Shown: positions 21,443-48,172, counted from the stretch's first letter. The stretch is DNA of 64,000 bases from a virus (IMGVR_UViG_3300028380_000482:32001-96000); one strand, 5' to 3'. Notes: generated from the sequence alone by a model not told the origin. Numbers and translations are program-made.

Positions 21443-21754
21443 TTACTGCGGAGCAACGTCGGGATGGGGAGAGGGTTGCGGCGGGGCCGTCTCAGCGGGG
21501 GACGGGGCAGGAGTAGGGGCGGGCGGTGGTGTAGTGTCTTTGGTAATCCCTTCAAGCCGCGCTTTTTCTTGCATCGCCTGACGGAATTGCTGCTGCGCAA
21601 CCGCAACATTGAGTTGCGCATTTTGTTGCAATAGGTTTTGCACCTGCAATTTTTCCTGCACACACTCCTCGGCCTGCGCCGGAAGGAGATGAATCAGGAA
21701 AGCAAACAATAACCCGACGACTACCCCCGCCCCTGCTTGAATCAGTTTGTTCAT
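21443..21754 (-). CDS. Exported coiled-coil, Pro-rich protein (spanin-like candidate)
   Basis: N-terminal TM/signal, Gln-rich helix and Pro-rich tail; ATGA-coupled to the endolysin. Confidence 0.5.
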   Translation of the reverse strand: MNKLIQAGAGVVVGLLFAFLIHLLPAQAEECVQEKLQVQNLLQQNAQLNVAVAQQQFRQAMQEKARLEGITKDTTPPPAPTPAPSPAETAPPQPSPHPDVAPQ

Positions 21755-22368
21755 ATTTCTTTCCTCCCTCTCGGCATTATACTCGCAGTGAGTATGTGGT
21801 CAAATTGTTGCGCAAGTCCTGCAATCTTGGCCGCCTGATCGGTCCCATTCACACAGCGGCGGGCGTCATAATAACTCCACGTCTTCCCATCAAGATACTG
21901 CCCGAGCCGTTTGCCAGTAAACAACCCTTCACACATCCCGAGCGAGGCAATGCGATAGCTATGTTCTGCCTCAAGCGCTAATTCAGGGGTAGTAAGGAGA
22001 TCCACGCCCAAGAGGCCAGAGAACGTCTCAAAATGTCCCCGCCCAGTAATCTGCACGTACCCATGCCCACAGTAGGTGTATGCGTCGGAGAGGGACTGAT
22101 TCCCGAGCACGTTGCAAATCTTTTTGTTGTGCCAGTAGCGCCGCACGAAGTATTCCTTGCCGCCCCGTTCCCGGATCGGCTGCCAGGTATCCGCAGTTTC
22201 GTGTTTGGTTGTCGCTAGGAAGTAGCTCACATACCGAGGATTTGCAGTGAGGACTTGGTCTGACTCGATGCAGGACAGGAGAGTCGTGAGGCCGTCGACT
22301 TGTGATTGCGAGAGCGAACCGAACGCCCGCCGATAGCCTGCGAAGAATTTTGCCCGGTCGATTTTCAC
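21751..22368 (-). CDS. Endolysin, glycoside hydrolase family 19
   Basis: YFLATTKHET...PIRE...YCGHGYVQITGR...ARRCVNG. Confidence 0.9.
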   Translation of the reverse strand: MKIDRAKFFAGYRRAFGSLSQSQVDGLTTLLSCIESDQVLTANPRYVSYFLATTKHETADTWQPIRERGGKEYFVRRYWHNKKICNVLGNQSLSDAYTYCGHGYVQITGRGHFETFSGLLGVDLLTTPELALEAEHSYRIASLGMCEGLFTGKRLGQYLDGKTWSYYDARRCVNGTDQAAKIAGLAQQFDHILTASIMPRGRKEI

Positions 22369-22369
22369 G

Positions 22370-22717
22370 TTACGGCCCTTCCCCCCCGAACACTTTTGCC
22401 GCCACGGCGCGAATCAACAAGGCACCAATCACTGCGGCCACCACTTGCCACACGCGGGCGTTACTACTGGCTTTCTCCGTCACCAGTTTCTTCACCTCGT
22501 TTTCGATAGCGGCAATACGACTCGTAAATCCTCCACTGCCTTTCTCGTCGCCGCGTAACGTCTTGAGAATGTAGAATATCAGGTCGTGATCCTTCGCCTG
22601 TTCGGCTTCCATGTGTTTGGTATTGGCAGCGAGGATGGCGACCTGCTCCTTGAGGCTATCAATGGCGACATGGAGCCGCTCGACATGGGCCTCAAGCCGA
22701 GCATCTCCGTTACTCAC
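22370..22717 (-). CDS. Coiled-coil protein with C-terminal TM (holin/antiholin-like)
   Basis: Topology and position next to the endolysin. Confidence 0.55.
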   Translation of the reverse strand: MSNGDARLEAHVERLHVAIDSLKEQVAILAANTKHMEAEQAKDHDLIFYILKTLRGDEKGSGGFTSRIAAIENEVKKLVTEKASSNARVWQVVAAVIGALLIRAVAAKVFGGEGP

Positions 22718-22718
22718 G

Positions 22719-23081
22719 TTACCTCCGCATCCAGGGCGGGAGCCCTTCGGGCGGAGGTTGGAGGAGTAAGCTATCCGGGGTGGGTTTCAACACGCCGACC
22801 ACCATCCGAGGATGAGCGGTTTTCAGTGGCTGTGTGGTGAGGCGACGAAGAATGATATTGATAAACGCGGTCACTGTGGTGATAGTCCCAGGGGGAACGA
22901 TGCCAAGGGTGCCGATAAGCTGGAGTGCTTCCAAGCTCGCCGCGCTGACGTTGAACCACACGGTTTTCGATTTCCACCATTCTTTGCCGACCACTTCGAT
23001 TTCGACGGTATTGGTAGGCAGGTCCGTTCCTAACGGGGGTATCAGCGACCCTAACACAAAGGGCGGAGTCGGTTCGGTCAT
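22719..23081 (-). CDS. Putative holin
   Basis: KEWWKSKTVWFN...INIILRRLTTQP pattern. Confidence 0.65.
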   Translation of the reverse strand: MTEPTPPFVLGSLIPPLGTDLPTNTVEIEVVGKEWWKSKTVWFNVSAASLEALQLIGTLGIVPPGTITTVTAFINIILRRLTTQPLKTAHPRMVVGVLKPTPDSLLLQPPPEGLPPWMRR

Positions 23082-23520: not shown

Positions 23521-23537
23521 GTGATGCCCTCCTTCCC

Positions 23538-26500
23538 TTACTGGTAATACCGGGCGGACGCCCGCCGTCGCACCGTTGCTGCCGTCACAGGATTGAAGCT
23601 CGCTCCCATTTGCGCCCAACTCGCCGTGGTATTCCCAACCGTCCAATTCATCGTAACACTCGATCCCGTCGACGGTTCAGTCGACATGCTCCCTTCGACG
23701 TTACTTGATTCATTCGGATTCGCGGCAGTGGTTTGATTGACGCCAATCCCGGTTTGGAGCGGTCCGACGGCGAGGTTGGTCAGCGAGTTCAGCGCCGTCA
23801 CACAATCGACCACGAGGTCTCCGCTGGCACTTCCAGTGACAGTGATGCCGGGGGGCGTGCTGCTCGTGCCCGTGCCGATCACCGCCGTATCGAACGGGGT
23901 GGTTGGGCTCACGTCTTTGAGAAAGAGAATCCCGCCGACGAGAAACTGATTAGTCGTGTTGGCCTGCATGGTAAAGGCATGTGGGCTGCCGTCACAGGTC
24001 GGATTGAGTTGATAGTACAGTTGGGCAAAGGTGCCGTTGTTCCCGGCCTCTTGAGCTGGTCCCCCAGGAACTACGGTCATATTCACACTATTCCACTGCG
24101 GCAGATTGAGTGTGATCGCCGAGGCCCCCGCCTTGCGGGTCGACAGACACGCCACGGCGACGACATTGGTACTGCCACTGGGGCAGGTCGCGTTCACCGT
24201 CTGGAGGGCCATCGTCGCGGTTACGCCGCTATTCATCGTGACTGGCGTCCCGATCACAGAGGGGCTGGTGAGCGTCGTTGTCACGTACTCATAGGCACCG
24301 ATGTCATAGGTGCCGTTTTGCGGACGCGTGGTGCCGACGAAATCGGTGGTCACGACCGATGATACGAGACTCGATCCTTGATCGATCGCGGGTGAGCCGA
24401 CGAGGAGCGCAAAATTCCCCACCGCCGCATTGGCAAACGTCGGATTTCCCACCACGGCGCAGCCCGTGCCTGCGACCCCACAGAGATTCTGCGTGAACAC
24501 TGTTCCTGTCCCCGTGTTTACGTTGGTCGTGGTGTTCTGATAGCAAATATTGTTGCGGATGAGCGCGGCACTTTGCGGGCTCTCAATCAGCATACAGCGT
24601 CCCCCGCCCGACTTCAGATTGTTCCAGATGGTATTGTTATAGATTTGATTATTGGTCCCGCCAAAGGCCAGCCAGAGTCCGTCGCCATTGGTATTATAGA
24701 TCAGATTGTTATAGAACTGGCTGTTATCTCCAGACCCCAGGAGGATGCCATAATCAATATTATTGCGAATGGTATTATAACGATAGATATTTCCGCTCAC
24801 GCCACCCGTACCGAGGTAGGTATCAATCCCCGCCCGCCCGTTATCGTGGATGTCGTTATACTCGACAATCGAGTTGGAGGCGGTGATCCACAGTCCTGGC
24901 ACGGTCGTGCGCGCATGGTGAATGTTGCAATGATCGATGAGGATCTCGGTCCCATTAGCGTAGATCAAGCCGGTCGGGCTGGCGGTGACCCCGCCGTTCA
25001 TAATTTCGGCATTGGTAATCTGCATGTGGCCGCTGGTGGCATTGAAGCCGCCGAGTTTATACCCCTCGCCGGTGGCAGCGGTCGCATCGCAGTTGATCCC
25101 GTCAAAAATAACGTACTGCTTGACACTGGTCGTGCCTAATGTCACACAGCGCGTGCCCGCCCCACCGCTCGGCTTGAGCCACACCGAAGCGCCAGGGGCG
25201 GCGCGGACTTGTAAGGCATTCGCCCAACTGGTGCCGCCGTTGACGCTCTCATTTAAGTGTTCGGCATAATCGCCCGCCGCAATCTGTACGATCGAGCTTG
25301 ACCCGGCTCCGCTGCCGGTGCCGATACAACCAAAGGCAGCAGTGATCGTCTGTTTAGGAGTGCCCGGATTCTGCGCCGCCGTACAGTCATTGCTATTACT
25401 CCCAGTTGTGGCGACATACAACGTCAGCGGCCCGCCCGTGCCCGTGGTAAACGACCAGACGGCGTCCGCCACCAGCGCATTCCCAGCAGAATCCTTAACC
25501 CCACTCGCCCCGCTCAGCACCGTCACGGTGTAGACCGTGCTGGCCGCAAGCGGACTATTCGGCGTAAGCAGTGCCGTGACCTGCCCCCCAGTATAGGATA
25601 CCGTTGCTGGAATGGTCGTGAGCGCCGGATTTTTCAGCAGGATCTTGGTATTGGTGATGGTGGCGCTATCCATCGTCTCACTAAAGGTGACGGTCACGGC
25701 TGCCGTCAGGGGAACGCCAGTGGCGCCGTTGACTGGCGCTTGCCCGGTCACGGTGGGCGGCGTCGTGTCCGCCGTAGTAAATTCATAGGCCCCAATGTCG
25801 AACGCGGAGCCTTGGGGTCGGAACGTCCCTTCGAAATCACTCGTCAAGCCAAGCGACGTGAGATTAAACCCCTGATTCACGGCGGCAGTGGAGGAGGCTT
25901 GCAAATGGAAGTCATCCGCAGCGGCGTTGACAAAATTGGGGTTGGTAGAAGAGTTATTACTCTGGGTAATGGTCGCAGAACTTCCACCGTTCACCACGCT
26001 ATTCGATCCGGCATTGTTCCAACAGATATTGTTGCGCACCAGTGCGGTTCCCGAAGTCCCAGCCCCAATGTGAATACAGGCCCCATTCACGTACTGATCG
26101 CCCACCGTCCCGTAAATGGTATTGTTATAGATGGAGATATTCGACACGTCATAGTTGCTGGCAATGCCTGCGCCGGTATTCCCATAGACCAAATTGTTAT
26201 GGACCAGGGTGCCGCTGCCTTTGGTGATCATAATGCCGACGCCAACCTTGCCACCGGGAATTCCATTCGCCCACACGCTGTTATAGCGGGCAATCACGTT
26301 ATTGGTGTATCCGGCAACACTGGAATTCCAAATGTCGATGCCGACGCTGGCGCTGTGATGGACATTGTTATACTCAAACAGATTGTTCGCGGCGCTGACG
26401 TAAAGCGCGGGCGGAAAATCCGCACCAGCGGGGAAATTTGCCCAGTTCCCATTGTTCCCGATTTCGTTGTTCAGATATTCATTGCAGCAGCCAGAGAGCG

Positions 26501-27053
26501 GATCAGTGGTGTTGGTGGTATTGAGCACGGCGCTCATCCGCGCCCGTTTCAGCGTATTGTTCTGTATGCGAATATGATCGGCCCGGTTGAAAATTCCGTC
26601 AATTTTAATCAAATGCGAGCCGTAGTTCGGGTCGCCCAACGAGTGCCCGCCAAGACCATCAAGGGTGAGATTCTGCAAAATAATATAGCGCTGCGCGGTC
26701 GCCCCCTGACCAAAGGTGAAGATTGCACTCTCGACCGTCGGGTGTTGGGTGAGGGTGGCGGTCTCTCCGGGATACGACATAATCGTGACGGGCGTGCTCC
26801 ACGAGGTCCCGGTCGGGACATTTTCAAGATGTTCGGCGTAAGTCCCCTGCCGAATGTAGAGGGTATCTCCGGGTGCGAGACACGTGACACCGGACGCGAC
26901 GGTCAGCTTGGGCGTTGCGAGGGTTTGTGCCGTCGCGCAGCTCCGCGCATCGCTGCCTCCAGTTTGCGCCACATAATAGTTGGCCGCTTGCGCAGAATGT
27001 CCCCACAACAGAGAGAACAGGACGAACACCCAGACGAGTGTGAATTTTGTCAT
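23538..27053 (-). CDS. Secreted protein with two right-handed beta-helix domains, an Ig-like domain and a C-terminal beta-sandwich
   Basis: Signal peptide ending SAQA; duplicated YVA.TG...RPQ...DIGAYE units; DTTPPTV...VTFSETMD Ig-like domain. Confidence 0.85.
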   Translation of the reverse strand: MTKFTLVWVFVLFSLLWGHSAQAANYYVAQTGGSDARSCATAQTLATPKLTVASGVTCLAPGDTLYIRQGTYAEHLENVPTGTSWSTPVTIMSYPGETATLTQHPTVESAIFTFGQGATAQRYIILQNLTLDGLGGHSLGDPNYGSHLIKIDGIFNRADHIRIQNNTLKRARMSAVLNTTNTTDPLSGCCNEYLNNEIGNNGNWANFPAGADFPPALYVSAANNLFEYNNVHHSASVGIDIWNSSVAGYTNNVIARYNSVWANGIPGGKVGVGIMITKGSGTLVHNNLVYGNTGAGIASNYDVSNISIYNNTIYGTVGDQYVNGACIHIGAGTSGTALVRNNICWNNAGSNSVVNGGSSATITQSNNSSTNPNFVNAAADDFHLQASSTAAVNQGFNLTSLGLTSDFEGTFRPQGSAFDIGAYEFTTADTTPPTVTGQAPVNGATGVPLTAAVTVTFSETMDSATITNTKILLKNPALTTIPATVSYTGGQVTALLTPNSPLAASTVYTVTVLSGASGVKDSAGNALVADAVWSFTTGTGGPLTLYVATTGSNSNDCTAAQNPGTPKQTITAAFGCIGTGSGAGSSSIVQIAAGDYAEHLNESVNGGTSWANALQVRAAPGASVWLKPSGGAGTRCVTLGTTSVKQYVIFDGINCDATAATGEGYKLGGFNATSGHMQITNAEIMNGGVTASPTGLIYANGTEILIDHCNIHHARTTVPGLWITASNSIVEYNDIHDNGRAGIDTYLGTGGVSGNIYRYNTIRNNIDYGILLGSGDNSQFYNNLIYNTNGDGLWLAFGGTNNQIYNNTIWNNLKSGGGRCMLIESPQSAALIRNNICYQNTTTNVNTGTGTVFTQNLCGVAGTGCAVVGNPTFANAAVGNFALLVGSPAIDQGSSLVSSVVTTDFVGTTRPQNGTYDIGAYEYVTTTLTSPSVIGTPVTMNSGVTATMALQTVNATCPSGSTNVVAVACLSTRKAGASAITLNLPQWNSVNMTVVPGGPAQEAGNNGTFAQLYYQLNPTCDGSPHAFTMQANTTNQFLVGGILFLKDVSPTTPFDTAVIGTGTSSTPPGITVTGSASGDLVVDCVTALNSLTNLAVGPLQTGIGVNQTTAANPNESSNVEGSMSTEPSTGSSVTMNWTVGNTTASWAQMGASFNPVTAATVRRRASARYYQ

Positions 27054-27853
27054 TACCGCCCTACTCCTAAGAGCATGAACTGTGGCACAGCGAGGGACGG
27101 CGGGATTTCTACAATCACGGGCGGCTGGTACCGCCGAAATTCCAAGAAGGGATCGCGGTAGAGACTCTGAATTTCCTGGGCATCGAGCGCCCGGTTGTAA
27201 ATCCGTACGTCGTCCAGCTTACCTTTGTAGAAATCCCCCAAATTTTCCGAGCCGAGATAGACCGGCGTTGTGCTGTCAAACATGGTTGCTGGCGTTGAGC
27301 CAGTCACAGTCCCCGGAAGCGGTGCGCCATCCCGATAGATGAGCTGAATCTGTGGGGTCGCCCCTCTCCAGACCCCCACAATGTGATGCCACACGCCTAT
27401 CGTATCAGTCGTGAACGCTGCCGTACTGCCAAACCACACGTCCCCCGTGCTGGTGGCAGTGACGGATAAGTAATACTTGTTATCTGTGGAGCGCAGCAAT
27501 TCAAATGATCGTTGAGCGCCAGCAGAGAGAGACCATTTTGTCACGTAAGGTTGTATGACCCCATTCTCTGCTTCATTGACCCATACGGAGACCGTCAACT
27601 CTTGGATTGGAAAGGGACGATCAGGAATGGTCACGTAATCATTGGTCCCATCAAAATTGATCGCGCCCCCAAACTGCCCCACATCCCAGGTCGGACCACC
27701 CGTCAGTACCCCGGTCCAGCCGTTGCCGCTCACATCATAGGCATTGAGGCCCGCGCCTTCGTTGCACATCCAGTGACCCATACAGCCCCGGTAGCGGGGG
27801 TGGCCGCGATGCCCGCCGCCCGAAATTTGCGCCAGTGAGGGCTTATACAGCAC
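27053..27853 (-). CDS. LamG/concanavalin A-like lectin domain protein
   Basis: FDGTNDYV, WHHIVGV, GKLDDVRIYNRAL. Confidence 0.9.
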   Translation of the reverse strand: MLYKPSLAQISGGGHRGHPRYRGCMGHWMCNEGAGLNAYDVSGNGWTGVLTGGPTWDVGQFGGAINFDGTNDYVTIPDRPFPIQELTVSVWVNEAENGVIQPYVTKWSLSAGAQRSFELLRSTDNKYYLSVTATSTGDVWFGSTAAFTTDTIGVWHHIVGVWRGATPQIQLIYRDGAPLPGTVTGSTPATMFDSTTPVYLGSENLGDFYKGKLDDVRIYNRALDAQEIQSLYRDPFLEFRRYQPPVIVEIPPSLAVPQFMLLGVGR

Positions 27854-28344
27854 TAGAGGCTTACTCCCGTGTAGTTGAGGACGTGGTCGCCCGCCGTCGC
27901 ACTGAGTGCCACGTTACTATCATGCACGACAAAGAGGCCATGAAATTTGGGCATCTGCCCACCGAAGGCTTGCGCGAGCGAAACTGGACCAAACCAGTAC
28001 ACTCGGCTTGCAGTCGTATCGACAAACAGCCGATCCACAAGCCGGAGGGCCCCGCGCTTGATATTGGCGCTGGTAATCGTGCGGTTACCGGAAGTCCCGG
28101 TGAGGACATCAGGATAGGTCGGGGTGTCGTTCACGCTGCCGAACGCCCAAATCTCAATAGTACGGTCCGCCGTCGCGGCGCTGCTGCCCATCGTGATCCT
28201 GCCGCCCACCAGGAAATCATTGTAGGTCGTCGTGGTATTATCAACCGTCGTGCTCTGCGTGCCCGCTAACAACACCCCAGCGGTCGTCGATGCCAAGCTA
28301 GTGAGCGTGATCGTGTAGGCTGCCGATGCCCCGTAGGTACTCAT
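27853..28344 (-). CDS. Hypothetical beta-rich virion-associated protein
   Basis: AAGGAG RBS; coupled to the LamG gene. Confidence 0.6.
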   Translation of the reverse strand: MSTYGASAAYTITLTSLASTTAGVLLAGTQSTTVDNTTTTYNDFLVGGRITMGSSAATADRTIEIWAFGSVNDTPTYPDVLTGTSGNRTITSANIKRGALRLVDRLFVDTTASRVYWFGPVSLAQAFGGQMPKFHGLFVVHDSNVALSATAGDHVLNYTGVSL

Positions 28345-28361
28345 TTAGGATCTCCTTGGGG

Positions 28362-28874
28362 TCATGGTAACTGCCACGCATTCAAGACATCGTCGTAGCT
28401 GAACGTGCCTTCAAAGGTCAGCGTGGAAGGGCTCGACGTACTGGCAGGGGATTGCGGCGTGGCATAAATCTTCTCGCCGCGATTGGCGAGACGCCGTGCC
28501 ATTGCCAGCAAATGTGTCCGTTGCGCCGTGCCTGGCCCCCCACTAAAGATGTCGGCCCAGCCTTGCCGGACGTTGGGCAGCGAGGGATTCACGCCCGCCC
28601 GATCCGAGAACATATCGCCCCAACAATCACGCTCCCCCTGCGAACGGGCAATGTAGATCGTATAATTCCACGTCGTGCCATCGACCGAGGTACTACTAAC
28701 AATCTCCGCTTTCGTGAGTGACGTGCGCCACACCCAGAAATCGGGCTGGGCAGGCAAGGCATACATCGCCGCAATCATCGCGGCATTCTCGGTCGTGTGT
28801 TCGAGCGCATTCATGACCGGGTTCTTTGCCATATCCGCTTTGAGGGCGGACCATTGTTCTGGGGTCAGTGCCAT
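28362..28874 (-). CDS. Hypothetical phage protein
   Basis: GAGGAGG RBS; MALTPEQ..ALKAD start. Confidence 0.65.
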   Translation of the reverse strand: MALTPEQWSALKADMAKNPVMNALEHTTENAAMIAAMYALPAQPDFWVWRTSLTKAEIVSSTSVDGTTWNYTIYIARSQGERDCWGDMFSDRAGVNPSLPNVRQGWADIFSGGPGTAQRTHLLAMARRLANRGEKIYATPQSPASTSSPSTLTFEGTFSYDDVLNAWQLP

Positions 28875-29023
28875 TGGTTCCTCCTCTAACTCTTCACGAG
28901 AGGCTGCCTCACAAACTGTGTGGCATTTGAAAAATGGTGGGGATGGGTTATAGTAGAGGGAGTCGTCTTACCGATGCTGACAACACCGGTAAGACAAGCA
29001 CCACCATGAAAGGATACTTCACG

Positions 29024-30761: not shown

Positions 30762-30777
30762 AATGGAGTGTGCCCCT

Positions 30778-31929: not shown

Positions 31930-32053
31930 ATTCTATTTTCCTTCTGAAGAAGAACCTGTTACACTGATTAGGCGGCTAGAGAAGGCCTCTCGAACACTCA
32001 GTACCTCGCTGAGTTGCCGCGCACACCACGAGGGCATCATGAGGAGATGCGCC

Positions 32054-32662: not shown

Positions 32663-32694
32663 CTGCGTCGCTGGCATGCTAGTTGCCTTCCTGG

Positions 32695-35884: not shown

Positions 35885-38412
35885 GTGCCTCCGGTCACCA
35901 TGCCGCTCACGCGATCACTGCGGGGATCGACGATGCGCGCCCGTGGCATATTCGCGGCATTTGGGTAAGTGTTGAGGGGATTGCCGCCCGCTTCACGGAC
36001 ATAGAAGTAGATATTCTGCCCTTGTGTGAGGGTATCTTTGAATTTGAGGGCGTAAATACATTCGGCCTCACTCCCCGCCCCCGCACTCCCGGACATAGTG
36101 ACGAACGGAATACTGTTGAAACTTTGAATCACCCCGCAGTCGATATTGGCGGTCTCATCACTGGCTAATAACTCCACACCGGGGATGAGAGAGCCGATGC
36201 CCAGCGCGGGCGTATAACAGACGGGGGCAGTACAGTCGTCTGTGACGGGGACGGCAGCAGTTTGCACGGTGGGGTCGGCAGGATCGACTTGATAGTAGAG
36301 CGGGAAGGGAACCGTCACATGACTGTTGACGGTATTGCGAATCTTGACAATGAGCCGGGCCTGCCCACCCGCGCTCGGCACCAGTTGCGCGTTCAAGGTG
36401 TTATAGAGCGGCGCGGTTGCGGCCCCGCCGACATTGGACTGCCACTGATACCTCGTCGTGGCAAGGATCGGCGTCCCACCATTTCCGCCCCCGAGGTTAT
36501 TGGTGGCAGTGATTGCAGGAGAGATGGAAAGCGCGGGAATCTTCGGTCCCCCGTTAATGGTTGGTGTCCCTGCCGTGACAAACCCCGTTGCCGCATTGTA
36601 GGCCACAGTCACGACTTGGGAACTTGTCGTAATCGTGTTGGTCGCAAAGGTAAAGTGAAAACACCGCAGCCCGGTAATAGTCGCAGGGCCGGTCGGAGTT
36701 TTCTGTACGCCAGCAACAACAAACGTCCAGCCTGTGAGGCTGGTTCCTTCCATTGGGATTGTGCCTTGATCATCTGCGTTCCAACAGACATCAACCTGAT
36801 CGGCAGCGAATACTTTGGCTTGCAGCACGGTCGGGGCACGATGGACGTAGAACACATAGCCGTCATCGTTCACGGCATTCGCTCCAATCGTGACGACATT
36901 GCCACTTTGGCTGACGTAACCAGTGACACAGGTCGCCGTCGGGGTGCCATTATCTTGCACTTCCAAGAAATAGAAGGTCGTGCATTTGGCATCGACAATC
37001 TTCTCCGTACTGAGCAGGTTGAAGGTGAGGCCGGTGCCGCTATGCTTGGTAAAGAAGAGTTTGTGATTCTGTTCGTAGTCTTTGTGCCGACTCCACGCCA
37101 TCTGCTGTGAGATAAAACTATTGGTGCTGGTATAGATATCCGTGCCTTCGGTCCACGTTCGCCCAGTGGCACCCCGTAAATTATCCCACGAGGGAATGGC
37201 CCGCAGCAAATAGATAGAGGTCAAGGCAAAGGTCGGATTGAGAGGCCCAATGAACCAGCCCCCCCACGCACTGATGCCCGTCGCGCCCCCAGAGGCCGCC
37301 GCCCGCCCTTCGATCAGTGCAGCTCCAGGGTAGCTCCGCTGGTGAAAGGTCGGTGCCGGTGAGGTGTTGGTGGGCGAGAGCCCAGTTTGCACCGCAGCGA
37401 CGGGAACAGGGGCGTAGGTGGTCGTGTCCTGTGTTCCGCAGCCGTTCGGCCACGGGTCGTCGAGGTAGCCAAGGCAGTCGCAGCCGTCACAAGCCCCGTT
37501 GCCACCTTTTCCACCACTGGACTCATTAAAGAGTAATTGAAAATTGAGGTCGGGGTCTCCGTAGACAGGGAAATTGTCCATCGTATACGGATTGCCACTC
37601 ATTCCCCCAAACGTGAGCCCGCCCGCGACAACGGCAGCGGCCATTTGGGTCCGCAAGTCCTTGGTGAATTTTTTCCGCCCGACTTCAAAACTGGCATTCG
37701 GGCTGGTCGCATTGGGGCAGTTCACTACAATCGGTTGCCCAGTAATAAACCGCGTTTCGTCAAGATATAATCCTGAATAGATTTTTTTGCCGCCGAGGTT
37801 GTCTTCGTGTAATTTTTTCACTCGCAGTTCTTGGTTAATATTCATTTGTATCCCGGCATCGTTGCGAAAATTGGGAACAAAAATGACTGCGTTCTTATTT
37901 TCCGCATGATAGAGCTGATATTTGAACGTGCCGGGATGGGCTTCGTCGTAGAGGTCGTTATAGGCCGAGGTCATCCCCCAAGCGGTCATACAGAGGGCCG
38001 TCTGCATGTCATCTAACACCTGCGAGGCCAGCGGAGAATTGAGCGGGAGGAAGCCCGCGCCGATAGCAATCTTCGTGGGCGAGGAAAATCCACTACTATC
38101 ACACGAGACCCCTGATCCCGGTTCGATACACGGATTATTGAGCCGCACCCATTTGGCGGCGCGGGCGTTGTTGGAGTTATATTGGACTTTGAGTCCTGCA
38201 TCGACCGCCGCCGAGGCTTTGGCGGTGGCGTAGGGTTCACCGATGATCCACTCATAGCCAAATTGTTTAGCAATGTTGGTAAACTTCGCCCAATCACTAT
38301 TGATCTTGCCATCATCGAGGACCGCAAACTGATTACGGAAGTCACCGGGAACAGCCGCAGCTCGGCTAGACAGGCTTAAAACCACAAAAAGTGAGAAGAG
38401 AAAGGCGTACAT
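35875..38412 (-). CDS. Secreted Cys-rich multidomain protein
   Basis: Signal peptide ending RAAA; many Cys pairs; SwmB-like segment PTVLQAKV...VTVAYN. Confidence 0.75.
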   Translation of the reverse strand: MYAFLFSLFVVLSLSSRAAAVPGDFRNQFAVLDDGKINSDWAKFTNIAKQFGYEWIIGEPYATAKASAAVDAGLKVQYNSNNARAAKWVRLNNPCIEPGSGVSCDSSGFSSPTKIAIGAGFLPLNSPLASQVLDDMQTALCMTAWGMTSAYNDLYDEAHPGTFKYQLYHAENKNAVIFVPNFRNDAGIQMNINQELRVKKLHEDNLGGKKIYSGLYLDETRFITGQPIVVNCPNATSPNASFEVGRKKFTKDLRTQMAAAVVAGGLTFGGMSGNPYTMDNFPVYGDPDLNFQLLFNESSGGKGGNGACDGCDCLGYLDDPWPNGCGTQDTTTYAPVPVAAVQTGLSPTNTSPAPTFHQRSYPGAALIEGRAAASGGATGISAWGGWFIGPLNPTFALTSIYLLRAIPSWDNLRGATGRTWTEGTDIYTSTNSFISQQMAWSRHKDYEQNHKLFFTKHSGTGLTFNLLSTEKIVDAKCTTFYFLEVQDNGTPTATCVTGYVSQSGNVVTIGANAVNDDGYVFYVHRAPTVLQAKVFAADQVDVCWNADDQGTIPMEGTSLTGWTFVVAGVQKTPTGPATITGLRCFHFTFATNTITTSSQVVTVAYNAATGFVTAGTPTINGGPKIPALSISPAITATNNLGGGNGGTPILATTRYQWQSNVGGAATAPLYNTLNAQLVPSAGGQARLIVKIRNTVNSHVTVPFPLYYQVDPADPTVQTAAVPVTDDCTAPVCYTPALGIGSLIPGVELLASDETANIDCGVIQSFNSIPFVTMSGSAGAGSEAECIYALKFKDTLTQGQNIYFYVREAGGNPLNTYPNAANMPRARIVDPRSDRVSGMVTGGTWR

Positions 38413-41400
38413 TTATTCGCTCGTGCTATTCACGGTATAGAAGACTTTCGGCGTGGCGTTGATGCGCACGTTCGCCATTCCAACGCCGGTCGTTGATAGT
38501 GTGGAGTTAATATCACAGTGCATATAGACGTGGTCGCCTGCTGCGGGCGTGTTCGTCAGGGTAATAGGGGGACTCGTCGCTTGTTCTTCCCGACCCGTCG
38601 CCGCGAGTCCAAAGGTAATGAGCTGTTCATTGGCGACGGTGGTTGATCGCGCCGCAATCACTTCATTGTCGCTAATCGCTTGCCCCGAGCAGTGCATGGC
38701 GACGTTGCCTGCCGGTGAGCCTGCAACACTGTAGAGGGTAGGGCGAACCGTGACAGTGCCCGCATTCCAATTGAGGGGCATGGTAAAGTCGAAATCGAAG
38801 CCGTCGTTGTCATTGGCGCCGCAGGTGAACACCCCGACTTTCGGCTTTCCGCTTGCCACCACTTCTTCGGTGTAGACGCAGCCACCAAATTCTTTGGCCC
38901 CGACTTCCACCGATTTGAGCGGCTGGGCAGCGGCAGTGGGATACTCGACTTTGCCCGTCACATGATTTATCCGCATGTGGGTCAGATTACCAAGCTGAAA
39001 ATTGATGTCATAACCAGGAGCAGTGGAAGGAGCCCGCACGTTGACATCCCCGTCAGGCTTCGTCACTAACTGGCACCCGCTGACCGGGTCGCAGTACAGC
39101 GTCATGGTCATATCGGTGGGATCGTTACAGTCGCCGTCTCCGGTAATGTCGGTACAGAACACCACACCGTTGGCGAGAGAGCTAAGGCCGAGAATTTGCT
39201 TGCCACCGTTATAGGCTTCCTGCAAACTCGTGGCCCCTACAGTGTCGGTATCGACAGCAGGTAAGGAGATCGAAGTGCCAGCCGCGCACCCGCCAGTCGT
39301 CGGGCAGTAGAACAACAAGGCAGGATCGGGGGCGGACGCGGGTTGCATACACGTTTGCCCGGCAGAGAGCGCAACCGTAGTACAATCGGCGGCGGTAATA
39401 CTCACGGTTCCTGTCCCAGTTCCACAGGCTGCCCCCGTTCCGGCAAAGTTGCCACTAGAATTAACCGTAACGCACTCGTTGGCGGGAATCGTTTCGCTCA
39501 TACGGAGGAGAGAGCCCGAGCCGGTCGGAGTTTTGAGAGACAGGGTATCAAGTACGCCGCTGGCCGTCTGTTTCGTTGCCCCCAACACGTTCAACTCGGT
39601 TTGCGTGGCAATCTGCGGATCGAGCAGGGTTGCTACTTGGGTTGCGGTGAGGTCTTCAGGATCGCCCGTTGCGGCTGTGACCCGGCCTTTGATCGTGGCG
39701 GTTGCCATATCAGCGGCTTTGGTATTGGTCACCGCGTTCGCGGCAATCGTCGTGGCTCCATCACCAACTGAGGTGACATCGCCGGTATGGTTCGGAGCGA
39801 CATAGTTATTGGCGCCGTCGGCGACGTTGATGATCGACCGGACTTGGGCGGGAGTCAGGTCTTGTGGATCGCCCGTCCCAGCAGCCATGCGTCCTTTGAT
39901 CGTAGTAGTGGCAATATCGGCAAGTTGCGAATTGGTAACGGCGTTGGGTGCGATGGTCGTGACGGTACCCGCTGAGGTGACATCTCCGGTATAATTCGGA
40001 TGAACGTAATTATTCGCCCCATCGGCGACGTTGAGTAGCGTTCGGACTTGGGCGGGAGTCAGGTCTTCGGGATCGCCGGTTCCGGCTGAGACACGGCCTT
40101 TGAGCAGGCCAGAGGCCATATTGGCAAGGGTCGTATTGCTGACCGCATCCGGCGCCACACGCCAGTCACTCGCCGCGACTACGACATCAATCTGATTTTT
40201 CAGTCCGGTCGTCACCCCGCCGCCCGTCGCGCACGGACCGCCGAATGAGGTGAAGTTTCCGCTGGCATCCACTTTCACACAGGCGTCGGTGACAAATGCC
40301 CCGGTACTCCGCCGAAGGTCCGTCCCCGTTCCAATAATATTGAGGCCACCAAGGAGCGTCAGGTCATTATCAGCAACTTGTTTCTCGCTATCGAGTTCGG
40401 CCAGCGCAGCTTGGACTTGATTCGAGCCAATGGTTCCAGCGGGTATGACACTGATGGCGGACGCGGCGTGCGCTGCACTGGTCTGATTGATATGCGCCGC
40501 GAGTTCGGGTTCCGTCACAAACGACGGATCGAGCAGCGTGACGACCTGCCCGACAGTGAGGTCTTCAGGATCGCCAGTGGTCGCAGACACACGACCTTTA
40601 ATCGTGGCGGTCGGCACGTTATTCAGTTTCGCGTTGGTGATGGCATCGGGAACCACGACCCACGACGAGCCCGCACCGCCGCCGCCGGTGACAGCGATGT
40701 CCCCTTTGGTCCCGTCTACTACAGCACCAATGCCGCACGGCGCACCGACGCTACTCAAGTTACCGTTGCTATCAACCTTGACACAATCGTTCGTCACAAA
40801 ACTGCCAGTCCAGAGCCGAATATCCGCCCCGGTTCCCTGGAGAGTTTTCGTCGCCAGCGGGGTGAGGGTATCAGCATCGAGCGGCTGCAACGTCGCCACA
40901 ACGGCATTGAGTTCAGCTTGCGTCGCGACATCTGCCCCGTTACTGAGATTCCCGGAGGCATCAGTTGTGACGTAATGCCCCGCCGTGAAACTGCCGGTAC
41001 TGCGGCGCAAATCGCCCCCCGTACCGATGATCGTCAGTCCTGCCACGGTCGTGAGGTCAGGATCGGACGGCTGAAGCCCCGTAATGGCTGCCGTCAGTTC
41101 GGACGGAATGACGACATCGAAACATGCCTCAACCGCGCCCATCGTATCCACGCCAAGGGGCGAAAAACCTGGGGAGCAGTTCCCGCCATTGTTGACGAGT
41201 GCGGCTGCCGTATTTGGGACAAAGGCGTTGAGTTCGGCCTGCGTCGCTACATCTCCACCGCTTACGAAGTTGCCAAAGGTGTCCGTGGTGACGTAGTGGC
41301 CGATAGTAAAGGTGCTCGCGCTCCGGCGCAGATCACCGCCCGTGCCAATGATTTGCAATCCGGCCAGTATGGTGAGTTCAGGATCGGAGGGTTGCAGCCC

Positions 41401-42069
41401 GGCGACGGCGGTGGTGAGTTCAGACTGCGTCGCGAGTTGCGGATCTAAAATGGCCGCGACTTGGGCGGCGGTCAAATCTTCCGGGTCTCCGGTTCCTGCG
41501 GTCGTCCGCCCTTTGATAGTCCCATTTGCCATGTTCGCCAGTTTGGCGTTTGAGACGGCATCGTTGACAATGGTCCAGTTGGTGACCGCATCGACCACAT
41601 TGATGTCTGCTTTGATACCAGTAGAAACGGTATTATCTCCATCGAGGAGATCGGCGGGCACGTTTTTGAGCTTGGTCCAATCGACGGGATTGGTCGGCGT
41701 ATTGATGGTACCGGAGAGCGTGAGCCCGGTCGTCACGGCATCGAGTTCAATCTGACTCGCGACATCGAAACAGCCTTCGACAATCCCGCTGGCATCGATC
41801 CCGAGGGGGGCACTTCCAGCGACACAGTTGGCTCCATTCGCCGCAAGTGCTGCGGCGGTACTCGCCGCGCCACCTGCGGCCCCTTCCACGCGTACCCTGA
41901 GCCGTCCGGTGGTCGGATCGAAGTCACAGACGATGCCAGTGCCGACACAATCCATTTGAAAGGCCGTCCGCAAGAACGTCCCTTCGTCCATCATCCGCAT
42001 GGGGGGCAGTTCAGCGGAGACGGGCGCAGCTAACAGAACAAGTAGGGAAAGCAGGAAGAGGAATATCAT
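38413..42069 (-). CDS. Secreted giant fibre protein with phage tail-fibre repeats
   Basis: Signal peptide ending PVSA; five copies of AVxNxxLxxxxxxxIKGRxxAxTGDPEDLT; about 24 Cys in local pairs. Confidence 0.8.
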   Translation of the reverse strand: MIFLFLLSLLVLLAAPVSAELPPMRMMDEGTFLRTAFQMDCVGTGIVCDFDPTTGRLRVRVEGAAGGAASTAAALAANGANCVAGSAPLGIDASGIVEGCFDVASQIELDAVTTGLTLSGTINTPTNPVDWTKLKNVPADLLDGDNTVSTGIKADINVVDAVTNWTIVNDAVSNAKLANMANGTIKGRTTAGTGDPEDLTAAQVAAILDPQLATQSELTTAVAGLQPSDPELTILAGLQIIGTGGDLRRSASTFTIGHYVTTDTFGNFVSGGDVATQAELNAFVPNTAAALVNNGGNCSPGFSPLGVDTMGAVEACFDVVIPSELTAAITGLQPSDPDLTTVAGLTIIGTGGDLRRSTGSFTAGHYVTTDASGNLSNGADVATQAELNAVVATLQPLDADTLTPLATKTLQGTGADIRLWTGSFVTNDCVKVDSNGNLSSVGAPCGIGAVVDGTKGDIAVTGGGGAGSSWVVVPDAITNAKLNNVPTATIKGRVSATTGDPEDLTVGQVVTLLDPSFVTEPELAAHINQTSAAHAASAISVIPAGTIGSNQVQAALAELDSEKQVADNDLTLLGGLNIIGTGTDLRRSTGAFVTDACVKVDASGNFTSFGGPCATGGGVTTGLKNQIDVVVAASDWRVAPDAVSNTTLANMASGLLKGRVSAGTGDPEDLTPAQVRTLLNVADGANNYVHPNYTGDVTSAGTVTTIAPNAVTNSQLADIATTTIKGRMAAGTGDPQDLTPAQVRSIINVADGANNYVAPNHTGDVTSVGDGATTIAANAVTNTKAADMATATIKGRVTAATGDPEDLTATQVATLLDPQIATQTELNVLGATKQTASGVLDTLSLKTPTGSGSLLRMSETIPANECVTVNSSGNFAGTGAACGTGTGTVSITAADCTTVALSAGQTCMQPASAPDPALLFYCPTTGGCAAGTSISLPAVDTDTVGATSLQEAYNGGKQILGLSSLANGVVFCTDITGDGDCNDPTDMTMTLYCDPVSGCQLVTKPDGDVNVRAPSTAPGYDINFQLGNLTHMRINHVTGKVEYPTAAAQPLKSVEVGAKEFGGCVYTEEVVASGKPKVGVFTCGANDNDGFDFDFTMPLNWNAGTVTVRPTLYSVAGSPAGNVAMHCSGQAISDNEVIAARSTTVANEQLITFGLAATGREEQATSPPITLTNTPAAGDHVYMHCDINSTLSTTGVGMANVRINATPKVFYTVNSTSE

Positions 42070-42104
42070 GTGGAAGTATCCCGTTGCGTGTGAAAATCAT
42101 GGTC

Positions 42105-42476
42105 TCACCAAACATTTATTTTGAGATTGACCGTCCCCGCCGTTTCGAGAATGCCGCAGAATTGCCCCGCCCATCCTGAGTCGATGGTGACCGTGACGGA
42201 CGCGCCAGGATAGAGCGGCTCCCCAACCGGGGTCGTAATTAAGGTCGTACAGTCCCCTTGGATCTTGGTAATCAGTAAGACGGTATTGGAGGACGAGAGC
42301 GAGTAGAACGTCACCCCTTTGCGAATCGAGGGGACGAGCGCAACAGCGGTCGCGGTATTGGTGAGGGCGGTGATCGTCGGGACTGAGGCCCCGTCTTTAT
42401 AGGCGGGCGGCACTTGTCCCGAGGCAAGCAGCGCAGAAGAAAAAAAGAGCAGGGAGCAAACCAGGATTCGGAACAT
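42105..42476 (-). CDS. Small secreted beta-rich protein
   Basis: Signal peptide MFRILVCSLLFFSSALLASG; one Cys pair in the mature part. Confidence 0.65.
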   Translation of the reverse strand: MFRILVCSLLFFSSALLASGQVPPAYKDGASVPTITALTNTATAVALVPSIRKGVTFYSLSSSNTVLLITKIQGDCTTLITTPVGEPLYPGASVTVTIDSGWAGQFCGILETAGTVNLKINVW

Positions 42477-48163: not shown

Positions 48164-48172
48164 AAGTAGTTC

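What the first reader, a model, noticed from the sequence alone, without database searches (positions are those of the whole stretch)
21443..42476. Sec-exported, disulfide-patterned giant fibre and glycanase genes embedded in the phage tail operon
Seen: five genes between the tail tip and lysis cassette start with classical signal peptides (42105-42476, 38413-42069, 35875-38412, 33449-35884, 23538-27053), about 12.5 kb in total. They are Cys-rich; the 1218-aa protein has about 24 Cys arranged as about 12 local pairs. The neighbouring non-secreted fibres (29766-30761, 30778-31929) have one Cys each and no leader. Known: tailed virions assemble in the reducing cytoplasm and their fibres normally lack signal peptides. 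Inference: a two-compartment assembly route in which appendages fold oxidatively outside the cytoplasm and dock on virions at lysis. Alternatively, they form a phage-encoded cell-surface adhesin/glycanase set, possibly aiding mating pairs.
Basis: partly seen in the sequence, partly recalled or inferred. Interest (0 to 1): 0.9.

Follow-up and report, generated by a model that had tools for sequence, protein, structure and literature searches.

The report
Phage tail-locus proteins carrying export signals
An uncultured 107-kb tailed phage encodes one fibre-like protein, three sugar-cutting enzymes and a small partner inside its tail/lysis operon that all carry secretion signals and paired cysteines, so they are very probably exported from the cytoplasm where virions are built, which is not how tail-locus proteins are thought to be made.

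Summary
Five minus-strand late genes (42105-42476, 38413-42069, 35875-38412, 33449-35884, 23538-27053) start at the first possible ATG. Each has a 13-15-residue uncharged core, an AXA-type cleavage site and no other membrane segment.

Evidence for export:
- Orthologs at 31-67% identity keep the leader although its sequence diverges.
- Mature Cys content is 1.75%, against 0.48% in leaderless structural proteins.
- Five Cys pairs of the 845-aa family are kept or lost together.
- The domains are those of exported bacterial proteins: a TIM-barrel glycosidase-like fold, beta-helices, choice-of-anchor Q, and a C-x17-C repeat found only in leader-bearing proteins.

Similar cassettes occur in at least five other phage lineages. 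This scan has also reported the phenomenon on other DNA several times.

Nothing supports docking onto virions:
- I found no shared docking module.
- The phage keeps a full leaderless fibre set.

My best reading is a late-expressed, Sec-exported glycanase/adhesin set that acts on host surface glycans and is released at lysis.

Caveats:
- No trained signal-peptide predictor was available.
- A leaderless tail protein here has 17 Cys.
- The host is unknown.

The parts
42105..42476 (-). 123-aa leader-bearing small protein. The mature ~103 aa hold one Cys pair (76/107). It is the first gene of the cassette.
   Evidence: Leader MFRILVCSLLFFSSALLASG|QVPP. It is identical in relative L003. A 127-aa leader-bearing protein sits in the same relative position in the unrelated phage L002. 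No Pfam, PHROG or NCBIfam family matches.
38413..42069 (-). 1218-aa leader-bearing fibre-like protein. It combines DUF5907-type phage-fibre repeats with C-x17-C ('module B') and C-x15-C disulfide-loop modules and a Cys-rich C-terminal tip (~905-1218).
   Evidence: 24 Cys form 12 local pairs. Its repeats are shared with many leaderless phage fibres. Module B occurs only in leader-bearing or Cys-rich homologs. The tip is 41% identical to a leader-bearing 676-aa protein in the same slot of L048. Its Atlas feature neighbours are viral.
35875..38412 (-). 845-aa leader-bearing enzyme-like protein. Residues ~20-525 model as a TIM-barrel glycoside-hydrolase-like domain, 525-640 as an Ig-like domain, and ~645-830 as beta-sandwich domains.
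   Evidence: In alignment A1 the leader diverges while conservation starts right after the cleavage site. The profile search found 135 relatives, nearly all complete ones leader-bearing. The AF2 model has pLDDT 72. VIA-align gives Cwp19 Z 8.8, PgaB GH domain Z 8.4-8.6, SbsC Ig-like Z 11.5 and Pan3 tailspike domain Z 10.6. The Atlas model resembles GHL15/GHL10/DUF4015. Five Cys pairs covary.
33449..35884 (-). 811-aa leader-bearing protein with a pectate-lyase/rhamnogalacturonase-like beta-helix. Its stop overlaps the start of the leaderless LtfC-like gene (ATGA).
   Evidence: PF12708 scores 33.5 bits against a cut-off of 27. The leader-bearing L048 ortholog is 34% identical over residues 6-795 and is fused there to the C-terminal region of the 845-aa type. 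Similar mature N-termini occur on about 1100-aa leader-bearing proteins. One leaderless relative, P0126, has a LamG N-terminus instead.
23538..27053 (-). 1171-aa leader-bearing protein with two right-handed beta-helix domains separated by a Big_5 Ig-like domain, two choice-of-anchor Q motifs and a C-terminal domain. It lies just upstream of the lysis genes.
   Evidence: Pfam Big_5, Beta_helix and NosD match. NCBIfam NF041518 scores 86 bits. Leader-bearing relatives occur in L004 and L048.
42538..43035 (-). Context: leaderless, Cys-free 165-aa protein between the J-like fibre gene and the cassette.
   Evidence: Translated. It is 99% and 51% identical in L003 and L048, evenly along its length.
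43032..48955 (-). Context: leaderless tail-tip genes. These are a Dit-like protein (48173-48955), a 595-aa beta-helix tail protein with 17 Cys (46376-48163) and a 1115-aa central-fibre-like protein (43032-46379).
   Evidence: PHROG tail fibre, tail spike and Tal hits. PF12708 matches the 595-aa protein.
27053..33452 (-). Context: leaderless lateral-fibre module. It holds an LtfC-like collar domain (33069-33452), a collagen-like protein (32695-33069), fibres (30778-31929, 29766-30761), small proteins and a LamG protein (27053-27853).
   Evidence: Pfam LtfC and Laminin_G_3. PHROG tail collar and fibre hits. Each has 0-2 Cys.
21443..23081 (-). Context: lysis region. It holds a 120-aa protein (22719-23081), a 115-aa protein with a C-terminal TM (22370-22717), a leaderless GH19-type endolysin (21751-22368) and a 103-aa protein with an N-terminal TM, a coiled coil and a Pro-rich tail (21443-21754, i-spanin-like).
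   Evidence: PHROG endolysin. Pfam GH19 is weak, below cut-off. TM scan. The homolog of the 120-aa protein abuts the cassette in L048.
8890..9204 (+). 104-aa leader-bearing Fn3-like protein encoded in the early region. Its homolog is a member of the leader cassette in L048.
   Evidence: 49% identity, E = 2e-29.

Best explanation
The five genes encode soluble proteins that the host Sec pathway exports. Signal peptidase I removes the leader, and the proteins fold with structural disulfides in the periplasm of a diderm host.

The set comprises three glycan-active enzymes (a TIM-barrel glycosidase-like protein, a pectate-lyase-like beta-helix and a double beta-helix), one fibre-like adhesin built from phage-fibre repeats plus disulfide-loop modules, and one small partner protein. 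They are transcribed with the tail and lysis genes late in infection.

I infer that they are not parts of the cytoplasm-assembled virion. Instead they would act on host envelope or matrix polysaccharides. From the periplasm or cell surface of the infected cell they would strip capsule or EPS and destroy receptors, so progeny escape and do not re-adsorb to debris. After lysis they would act as stable, free, diffusible enzymes and adhesin on neighbouring cells.

Shown: the leaders, their conservation, the disulfide covariation, the domain classes, the operon embedding and the recurrence in other phages. Inferred: actual export, the substrate, and absence from virions.
For: - Leaders: canonical n/h/c layout at the first possible ATG in all five genes, with no other TM.
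- Selection on the leader: in the 845-aa family (47-100% identity) the leader sequence diverges but stays hydrophobic, and strict conservation starts 0-4 residues after the predicted cleavage site. L048 orthologs of the 1218-, 811- and 1171-aa proteins, at 31-41% identity, all keep leaders.
- Family-wide export: 22 of 28 N-domain-type and 20 of 23 C-domain-type relatives of at least 400 aa carry leaders, and the rest look truncated. Module B appears as 48 copies in 11 proteins, only leader-bearing or Cys-rich ones. Of 39 MAG loci with module B, nearly all carriers with a complete 5' end have a leader or anchor.
- Disulfides: Cys pairs 311/325, 477/495, 543/584, 727/732 and 759/785 are kept or lost together. 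For example 759/785 shows both in 36, one alone in 0 and neither in 14. Cys is enriched 3.7-fold over leaderless structural proteins.
- Architectures typical of secreted bacterial enzymes: choice-of-anchor Q, Big_5 plus Beta_helix, and TIM-barrel matches to the extracytoplasmic hydrolases Cwp19 and PgaB followed by an S-layer-type Ig domain. Stand-alone N-domain homologs lie in non-phage contexts.
- Accessory character: cassette content differs among relatives (L003 and L048). L003 has lipoprotein, DUF1353 and TM genes inserted beside it. The phage keeps leaderless Dit, Tal-like, J-like fibre, collar and lateral-fibre genes.
- Precedent for late, non-virion, burst-released depolymerases: phiNIT1 PghP and LevP, as reviewed in PMC6966330.
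Against: - No trained signal-peptide predictor and no experiment; export is inferred.
- Three of the five leaders lack a basic residue in the n-region.
- The 1218-aa protein has no enzyme domain and is built from repeats typical of virion fibres. A free soluble fibre is harder to rationalise than a virion- or cell-bound one.
- The genes are tightly packed and translationally coupled with structural genes and lack their own promoters or terminators, as true tail genes would be.
- Cys richness alone does not require export. The leaderless 595-aa tail protein has 17 Cys, and phage Milano virions carry extensive disulfides on proteins for which that paper mentions no signal peptides.
- Host, substrate and route across the outer membrane are unknown.
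Confidence: 0.55

Rival explanations
1. Cell-surface display. The exported fibre-like protein, and perhaps the enzymes, stay attached to the envelope of the infected or lysogenic cell. There they act as adhesins or surface modifiers, like Bdellovibrio MAT fibres. Possible roles are aggregating host cells, excluding other phages, or stabilising mating pairs for the T4SS that this phage genome also carries.
For: The architecture of leader, fibre repeats and disulfide-containing variable tip parallels MAT fibres. Module B is widespread on leader-bearing proteins in large bacterial contigs. The same genome encodes Trb-type genes (not verified here) and a coupling protein homologous to TraD (25% identity). 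L003 has membrane and lipoprotein genes beside the cassette.
Against: No anchor was recognised: no second TM, no lipobox and no C-terminal sorting signal. The genes are coupled to late tail and lysis genes rather than to an independent promoter, so the producing cell is about to lyse. Comparable cassettes occur in several unrelated phage lineages, and the fetched stretches show no called T4SS genes, though they are only partial. The mature N-terminus is not conserved between orthologs, unlike the invariant MAT N-domain.
Confidence: 0.15
2. Two-compartment virion assembly. The proteins fold oxidatively in the periplasm and bind to cytoplasm-built virions once the holin merges the compartments or at lysis, becoming true receptor-binding appendages.
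For: The position is inside the tail-fibre region with translational coupling to structural genes. The 1218-aa protein shares shaft repeats with real phage fibres. The 845-aa protein shares an Ig-like domain with a cyanopodophage tailspike. In L047 the homolog of the window's tail beta-helix protein itself has a leader. The cassette recurs next to tail genes in several lineages. From general knowledge, holin lesions are large enough to let compartments mix before the outer membrane fails.
Against: No conserved docking domain was found. The cassette proteins share no terminal module at BLASTP E <= 1e-3, and the N-terminus of the 1218-aa protein is unrelated to that of its L048 ortholog although tail-tip proteins are 40-52% identical. 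The candidate adaptor P0260 is evenly conserved and does not track the cassette. The modular logic is variable N-terminal catalytic part plus shared C-terminal part, the reverse of virion RBPs. The virion already has several leaderless fibres. MS-verified virion proteins of the only cultured phage hit are leaderless. An earlier check within this scan priced the same bold claim on other DNA at low odds (not independent evidence).
Confidence: 0.12
3. Auxiliary lysis factors. The exported glycanases pre-position in the envelope to degrade non-peptidoglycan layers, such as capsule, sheath or periplasmic or outer glycans, that would otherwise hold the lysing cell together. They would work with the holin, endolysin and spanin.
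For: The 1171-aa gene lies directly upstream of the lysis genes. In L002 and L006 the cassettes are followed at once by small TM (holin-like) genes, and in L048 a homolog of the window's 120-aa lysis-region protein follows the cassette. The best TIM-barrel matches include the cell-wall hydrolase Cwp19 and the PNAG hydrolase PgaB.
Against: Tail-fibre genes commonly neighbour lysis genes anyway. This does not explain the fibre-like 1218-aa protein. The Z scores of 8-9 are near the noise ceiling stated for the tool.
Confidence: 0.08
4. The leaders are not functional export signals. They could be hydrophobic N-terminal segments with another role, or mis-set starts, with the proteins remaining cytoplasmic.
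For: No predictor or experiment was run. Three leaders lack a basic n-region. The 1218-aa protein has Met codons at 24, 26 and 27, just after the predicted cleavage site.
Against: Every leader starts at the first available ATG, and one follows a stop codon directly. No Shine-Dalgarno motif precedes Met24-27. Leaders are retained across orthologs and families while their sequence drifts. Their co-occurrence with covarying Cys pairs and export-only modules would be unexplained.
Confidence: 0.03

Closest known systems
Bdellovibrio bacteriovorus MAT (mosaic adhesive trimer) fibres (Caulton et al. 2024, PMC10769870)
   Same: They have a signal peptide followed by a long phage-tail-fibre-like shaft and a variable C-terminal tip that can contain disulphides. 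They are exported and act outside the cytoplasm.
   Different: MATs are chromosomal genes of a predatory bacterium. They share an invariant ~130-aa N-terminal anchor domain, and many end in an S74 chaperone-protease. The 1218-aa protein is phage-encoded in a tail/lysis operon, shows no conserved N-domain and has no S74 hit. Its trimer state could not be tested.
Virion tailspike and tail-fibre depolymerases (e.g. P22 gp9-type tailspikes; Cellulophaga phage phi4:1 structural proteins)
   Same: They share beta-helix glycanase domains, fibre repeats and a location in the tail-fibre region. A ~110-aa segment of the 1171-aa protein matches an MS-verified phi4:1 virion protein.
   Different: Verified virion proteins are leaderless and Cys-poor or Cys-moderate, and they carry N-terminal particle-binding domains (general knowledge). 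The proteins here start with cleavable leaders and show no such domain.
Non-virion, burst-released phage depolymerases: Bacillus phage phiNIT1 PghP and LevP (reviewed in PMC6966330)
   Same: They are phage-encoded polysaccharide-degrading enzymes made late, not part of the particle, released to act on the capsule or EPS of surrounding cells, and thought to be acquired from hosts.
   Different: As reviewed, those enzymes are released by lysis. The review passage does not say whether they carry signal peptides. No multi-gene leader-bearing cassette or disulfide design is described.
Pantoea stewartii WceF (PMC7949094)
   Same: It is an exported glycanase with a tailspike-like beta-helix fold that acts on the producer's own EPS.
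   Different: WceF is bacterial and lies in an EPS biosynthesis cluster. It is exported folded through Tat with a twin-arginine leader. The leaders here have no RR motif and are Sec-type.
Signal-peptide genes embedded in tail-fibre regions of model phages (lambda lom, T5 llp; my own knowledge) and leader-bearing genes of unknown function in Porphyromonas phages (PMC10367356)
   Same: They are exported proteins encoded among or beside tail-fibre genes that modify the host envelope rather than build the virion. Matrishin et al. propose outer-membrane modification.
   Different: Those are small proteins (about 60-200 aa), often independently expressed morons. Here the proteins are 811-1218 aa, are fibre- or enzyme-like and are translationally coupled into the late operon.
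Agrobacterium phage Milano disulfide network (PMC10811340)
   Same: It is a tailed phage whose structural and receptor-binding proteins are stabilised by many disulfides.
   Different: The paper makes no mention of signal peptides for these proteins, and the disulfides link proteins within the assembled particle. It shows that Cys richness alone does not imply export.

Membership tests
Sec-type (SPase I) signal peptide | N-terminal n-region, 7-15-residue uncharged hydrophobic core, and a polar c-region with small residues at -3 and -1 | tested here: met
   All five show h-regions of 13-15 residues and the sites VSA|E, AAA|V, AHA|S, AQA|A and ASG|Q. Three lack a basic n-region residue.
Sec-type (SPase I) signal peptide | Call by a trained predictor (SignalP or DeepTMHMM), or experimental export and cleavage | not testable with these tools
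   No such predictor is available here. Indirect support comes from leader retention in orthologs and families.
Sec-type (SPase I) signal peptide | Not a Tat leader, lipoprotein leader or uncleaved signal anchor | tested here: met
   There is no RR motif and no lipobox in register. The h-regions are shorter than a TM helix and are followed by AXA.
Virion receptor-binding protein (tail fibre or tailspike) | Made and assembled in the cytoplasm, so no export signal | tested here: not met
   All five have leaders. The MS-verified phi4:1 virion proteins are leaderless.
Virion receptor-binding protein (tail fibre or tailspike) | Conserved particle-binding (usually N-terminal) domain shared with orthologs or co-resident fibres | tested here: inconclusive
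   The cassette proteins share no terminal module at BLASTP E <= 1e-3. The N-terminus of the 1218-aa protein is not conserved in L048. A structural docking motif cannot be excluded.
Virion receptor-binding protein (tail fibre or tailspike) | Presence in purified virions | not testable with these tools
   The phage is uncultured and metagenomic.
Bdellovibrio MAT fibres | Signal peptide followed by a conserved ~130-aa beta-rich N-terminal domain | tested here: inconclusive
   The leader is present. No conserved post-leader domain appears between the 1218-aa protein and its L048 ortholog. No direct comparison with MAT sequences was made.
Bdellovibrio MAT fibres | Homotrimeric fibre along its whole length | not testable with these tools
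Bdellovibrio MAT fibres | C-terminal S74 chaperone-protease (S74 subgroup) | tested here: not met
   No Peptidase_S74 hit in Pfam for the 1218-aa protein.
(beta/alpha)8 glycoside hydrolase-like fold (GHL, PgaB or Cwp19 type), for the 845-aa protein | TIM-barrel fold of the N-terminal ~500 residues | tested here: inconclusive
   The AF2 model has mean pLDDT 72, but parts of the barrel are below 50. All N-domain matches are TIM-barrel hydrolases: Cwp19 Z 8.8, PgaB Z 8.4-8.6, and GH30, GH39, GH168 and GH20 at about Z 7.5-8.5. The Atlas model resembles GHL15 and GHL10. These Z values are near the tool's stated noise ceiling.
(beta/alpha)8 glycoside hydrolase-like fold (GHL, PgaB or Cwp19 type), for the 845-aa protein | Catalytic acid and nucleophile residues in place | not tested
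   No reliable residue-level superposition was available. No Pfam or NCBIfam model matches.
Pectate-lyase-like beta-helix (PF12708), for the 811-aa protein | Score above the Pfam gathering threshold | tested here: met
   33.5 bits against 27, covering residues 467-540 only.
Right-handed beta-helix, Big_5 and choice-of-anchor Q, for the 1171-aa protein | Scores above the curated cut-offs | tested here: met
   Big_5 scores 84 against 23.6, Beta_helix 82.1 against 25.9, and NF041518 86.2 against 25.
Moron (independently expressed accessory gene) | Own promoter and terminator flanking the gene | tested here: not met
   No excess of promoter or terminator matches and none at the junctions. Gene spacing is 0 nt or overlapping, and at most 61 nt.

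The most novel reading that the evidence does not exclude
Tailed phages of several lineages build part of their host-recognition apparatus in a second compartment. Fibres and glycanases would be Sec-exported and disulfide-folded in the periplasm, then captured by cytoplasm-assembled virions when the holin merges the compartments. That would make virion assembly a two-compartment process.
Probability: 0.1. Interest if true: 0.9.

Novelty: new variant of a known kind. Interest (0 to 1): 0.6.

Why it matters
Textbook tailed-phage biology has every late structural-locus protein made and assembled in the reducing cytoplasm. Absence of signal peptides is even used as an argument that a protein is of phage origin (PMC6199706).

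Here about 12.5 kb of a tail/lysis operon encodes conserved, export-tagged, disulfide-built fibre-like and glycan-cutting proteins, and similar cassettes recur in unrelated phages.

If they are free or surface-acting enzymes, phages invest heavily in remodelling the host glycan coat from the outside during late infection. That bears on plaque halos, biofilm penetration, progeny loss to debris, and the search for stable depolymerases. If any of them join the virion, the assembly pathway itself needs revising.

Either way the question is directly testable with reporter fusions and virion versus periplasm proteomics in a cultured relative.

Tried and rejected
- The first AF2 run of the 845-aa protein used a 4-sequence alignment, gave pLDDT 35 and was discarded.
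- Foldseek against the PDB with the better model returned only generic tandem Ig-like matches and weak amylase/CGTase hits.
- phmmer against PDB sequences found nothing for any of the four large proteins.
- GenBank phages hold no relatives of the 811- and 845-aa proteins. The 1218- and 1171-aa proteins match only short domains. There is no near-identical phage record.
- IMG/VR scans with the 845-aa family and with the tail tube protein found nothing. The Tal-like protein gave one distant locus.
The coupling protein is only about 25% identical to TraD of many Proteobacteria.
Neither trimerisation of the tip of the 1218-aa protein nor any docking pair was tested.
- I considered a leaderless isoform of the 1218-aa protein from Met24, 26 or 27 and rejected it. 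No Shine-Dalgarno motif precedes them, and the other four proteins have no such Met.
- I considered the 165-aa leaderless neighbour as a co-evolving adaptor and found no co-variation.
- I considered moron-type independent expression and found no signals.
- My first, looser leader heuristic gave false positives on DUF2793 N-termini. It was replaced by manual reading and a stricter rule.

Full report
**Setting.** The window is bases 32001-96000 of a 107,563-bp IMG/VR virus record, estimated 93% complete. The minus strand from about 63 kb down to 21 kb is a siphovirus-type late operon. In order it holds a weak, sub-threshold capsid-like match (Phage_cap_E, E = 0.0055), a tail tube protein (PF18906), a 2005-aa Cys-free protein in the tape-measure position with no family match, a 260-aa Dit-like protein, a 595-aa beta-helix tail protein, a 1115-aa central-fibre-like protein, an LtfC-like collar domain, a collagen-like protein, two fibres, a LamG protein, a GH19-type endolysin and an i-spanin-like protein. 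The spanin-like protein and the leaderless endolysin point to canonical lysis of a diderm host. No cultured phage is close to this one.

**The observation.** The five ORFs are at the stated coordinates.
- Each starts at the first ATG after an in-frame stop. The ATG of the 845-aa gene abuts the TAA of the 1218-aa gene, the 845/811 pair overlaps by 10 nt, and the stop of the 811-aa gene overlaps the start of the leaderless LtfC-like gene.
- The N-termini have uncharged hydrophobic cores of 13-15 residues followed by VSA|E, AAA|V, AHA|S, AQA|A and ASG|Q.
- They have no twin-arginine motif, no lipobox in register and no other hydrophobic segment.
- A stricter rule finds such N-termini on 9 of 97 ORFs of at least 100 aa, against 2.6 after shuffling. 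Four of the seven ORFs of at least 800 aa have one, and these are the four large genes of the finding.
- The 24 Cys of the 1218-aa protein form 12 sequential pairs, 11 of them 6-19 residues apart.
- Mature leader-bearing proteins hold 1.75% Cys against 0.48% in 13 leaderless structural proteins (p = 4e-10).
- The exception is the leaderless 595-aa tail protein with 17 Cys. Phage Milano also shows that virion proteins, for which that paper mentions no signal peptides, can be heavily disulfide-bonded. Cys content alone therefore proves nothing. The argument rests on the leaders.

**Are the leaders under selection?** Yes.
- The 845-aa protein has three non-self homologs at 67, 56 and 47% identity. 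Their leaders differ in sequence but stay hydrophobic, and strict conservation begins at ..FRNQ.., 0-4 residues after the predicted cleavage site.
- L003 is a 91% relative with the same gene order.
- L048 is a distant relative whose core tail proteins are 40-52% identical. The same slot there holds leader-bearing genes: a 676-aa protein whose tip is 41% identical to that of the 1218-aa protein, a 1088-aa ortholog of the 811-aa protein fused to the C-terminal region of the 845-aa type, two smaller leader-bearing genes, and further on a leader-bearing ortholog of the 1171-aa protein.

**Disulfides.** In a profile alignment of 137 relatives of the 845-aa protein, five Cys pairs are present or absent together:

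| Pair | Both | First only | Second only | Neither |
|---|---|---|---|---|
| 311/325 | 9 | 0 | 0 | 12 |
| 477/495 | 21 | 0 | 1 | 50 |
| 543/584 | 16 | 0 | 0 | 22 |
| 727/732 | 24 | 4 | 1 | 21 |
| 759/785 | 36 | 0 | 0 | 14 |

Relatedness inflates the p-values. Still, adjacent pairs co-occur far more tightly than non-adjacent ones, which is what structural disulfides predict.

**What the proteins are.**
- The 1218-aa protein is modular. It contains DUF5907-type repeats shared with many leaderless phage fibres, C-x15-C loops, two copies of a ~45-aa C-x17-C repeat that I call module B (consensus ..TATALAANGANC..G..PLGVDASGA.EGC..), and a Cys-rich tip.
- Among the 120 best relatives, module B occurs 48 times in 11 proteins. 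All 11 are Cys-rich (13-43 Cys). Nine carry a leader and two lack a called one, one of them visibly 5'-truncated. Module B never occurs in the DUF2793-type leaderless fibres, which have 0-5 Cys.
- A scan of 185,579 species genomes finds module B in 39 MAG loci from very different phyla. Nearly all carriers with a complete 5' end begin with a leader or anchor. Module B is thus a marker of exported proteins.
- The 845-aa protein has no Pfam, PHROG, NCBIfam or PDB sequence match. With a 119-sequence alignment AF2 gives pLDDT 72. Residues ~20-525 align only with (beta/alpha)8 glycoside hydrolases, best Cwp19 (Z 8.8) and the PgaB hydrolase domain (Z 8.4-8.6). Residues 525-640 form an Ig-like domain (SbsC Z 11.5, Pan3 tailspike domain Z 10.6), followed by beta-sandwiches.
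- The ESM Atlas model independently resembles GHL15, GHL10 and DUF4015. The barrel assignment is moderate, not firm.
- The 811-aa protein has a pectate-lyase/rhamnogalacturonase-like segment.
- The 1171-aa protein has two beta-helices, a Big_5 domain and two choice-of-anchor Q motifs.
- The 123-aa protein is unassigned.

**A shuffling family of exported proteins.** The exhaustive profile search returned 135 relatives.
- N-domain relatives are mostly ~450-520-aa leader-bearing proteins. Two whose contexts I looked up lie in non-phage settings.
- The C-terminal ~300 aa of the 845-aa protein recurs at the C-terminus of leader-bearing proteins whose N-terminal parts resemble the 811-aa or the 1171-aa protein.
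- Of relatives of at least 400 aa, 22 of 28 and 20 of 23 have leaders, and the rest look truncated.
- The logic is variable catalytic N-part plus shared C-part. That is the logic of secreted bacterial enzymes and the reverse of virion receptor-binding proteins.

**Recurrence.** Contiguous runs of leader-bearing, Cys-containing genes lie in the structural modules of other, unrelated phage contigs, usually just before small TM (holin-like) genes:

| Locus | Leader-bearing genes |
|---|---|
| L002 | 706, 127, 1420, 236, 861 and 99 aa |
| L004 | 680, 242 and 685 aa, with 15, 5 and 18 Cys |
| L005 | about nine of 28 genes |
| L006 | 970 aa (30 Cys), 805, 161 and 271 aa |
| L047 | two genes |

This scan has reported the same phenomenon on other DNA at least seven times. 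One later check kept the observation but priced the virion-docking reading low. I treat that as a lead, not as evidence.

In print I found only leader-bearing genes of unknown function in Porphyromonas phages (PMC10367356). I also found the general statement that phage target proteins lack signal peptides (PMC6199706).

**Virion part or not?** I found nothing that ties the exported proteins to the particle.
- They share no terminal module with each other at BLASTP E <= 1e-3.
- The post-leader N-terminus of the 1218-aa protein is not conserved in L048.
- The conserved leaderless 165-aa neighbour varies evenly, like core tail proteins, rather than with the cassette.
- Cassette content changes among relatives, and in L003 it is flanked by lipoprotein, DUF1353 and membrane genes.
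- A small Fn3-like leader-bearing protein is in the cassette in L048 but in the early region here.
- The phage retains several leaderless fibre candidates.
- MS-verified virion proteins of the only cultured phage hit are leaderless.

On the other side, the genes are not morons. They have no promoter or terminator signals of their own and are tightly coupled to structural genes. The 1218-aa protein also looks like a fibre, not an enzyme. Docking therefore cannot be excluded, and the complex tool that might have probed it was unavailable.

**Conclusion.** Export and oxidative folding are well supported. I put export itself at about 0.85. The most economical function is a late-expressed exported glycanase/adhesin set acting on host surface glycans and released at lysis. 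This is analogous in role to the non-virion depolymerases of phiNIT1 and in design to exported tailspike-like or fibre-like bacterial proteins such as WceF and the MAT fibres. The two-compartment assembly idea remains a low-probability, high-interest alternative.

Noticed in passing
window 46376-48163 (-): The leaderless 595-aa beta-helix tail protein has 17 Cys (2.9%), including a CCC run at residues 549-551. Its beta-helix homolog in IMG/VR locus L047 (4635-6392) carries a leader, as does the next gene there. The same domain therefore exists in leaderless and leader-bearing forms.
   Followed up: partly
L003:15714-17281: The 91%-identical relative has four extra genes between the 811-aa ortholog and the LtfC-like gene: an 87-aa lipoprotein-like protein, a DUF1353 protein and two membrane proteins. 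This marks the spot as an insertion hot-spot for envelope-directed accessory genes.
   Followed up: partly
window 8890-9204 (+); L048:14067-14399: A small Fn3-like leader-bearing protein is encoded in the early/T4SS region here. Its 49%-identical homolog sits inside the leader cassette of L048.
   Followed up: yes
window 15243-15836 and 15907-16728 (+); genome 21055-22602 (+): Further leader-like proteins lie outside the late operon. Two adjacent proteins have similar leader-like N-termini (197 and 273 aa), and a 515-aa protein lies upstream of the window.
   Followed up: no
The coupling protein is about 25% identical over 84-88% of its length to TraD of conjugative plasmids.
   Followed up: partly
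L007-L045 (genome-contig scan): The 45-aa disulfide-loop repeat (module B) is 57-89% identical (most 65-85%) across MAG bins assigned to Elusimicrobia, CPR/Patescibacteria, Acidobacteriota, Binatia, Thiomargarita, Beggiatoa, Nitrospinota and even Nanoarchaeota. This suggests phage contigs binned into MAGs or very wide horizontal spread.
   Followed up: partly
L005:1-23030: In this SU10-adaptor-type podophage contig about nine of 28 genes have leader-like N-termini. They include a 772-aa gene directly after the adaptor gene, where a nozzle or tail protein would be expected.
   Followed up: no
window 28934-29800 (+): A 288-aa ORF lies antisense to the late operon, between the fibre gene and the downstream small genes. 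I did not test that.
   Followed up: no
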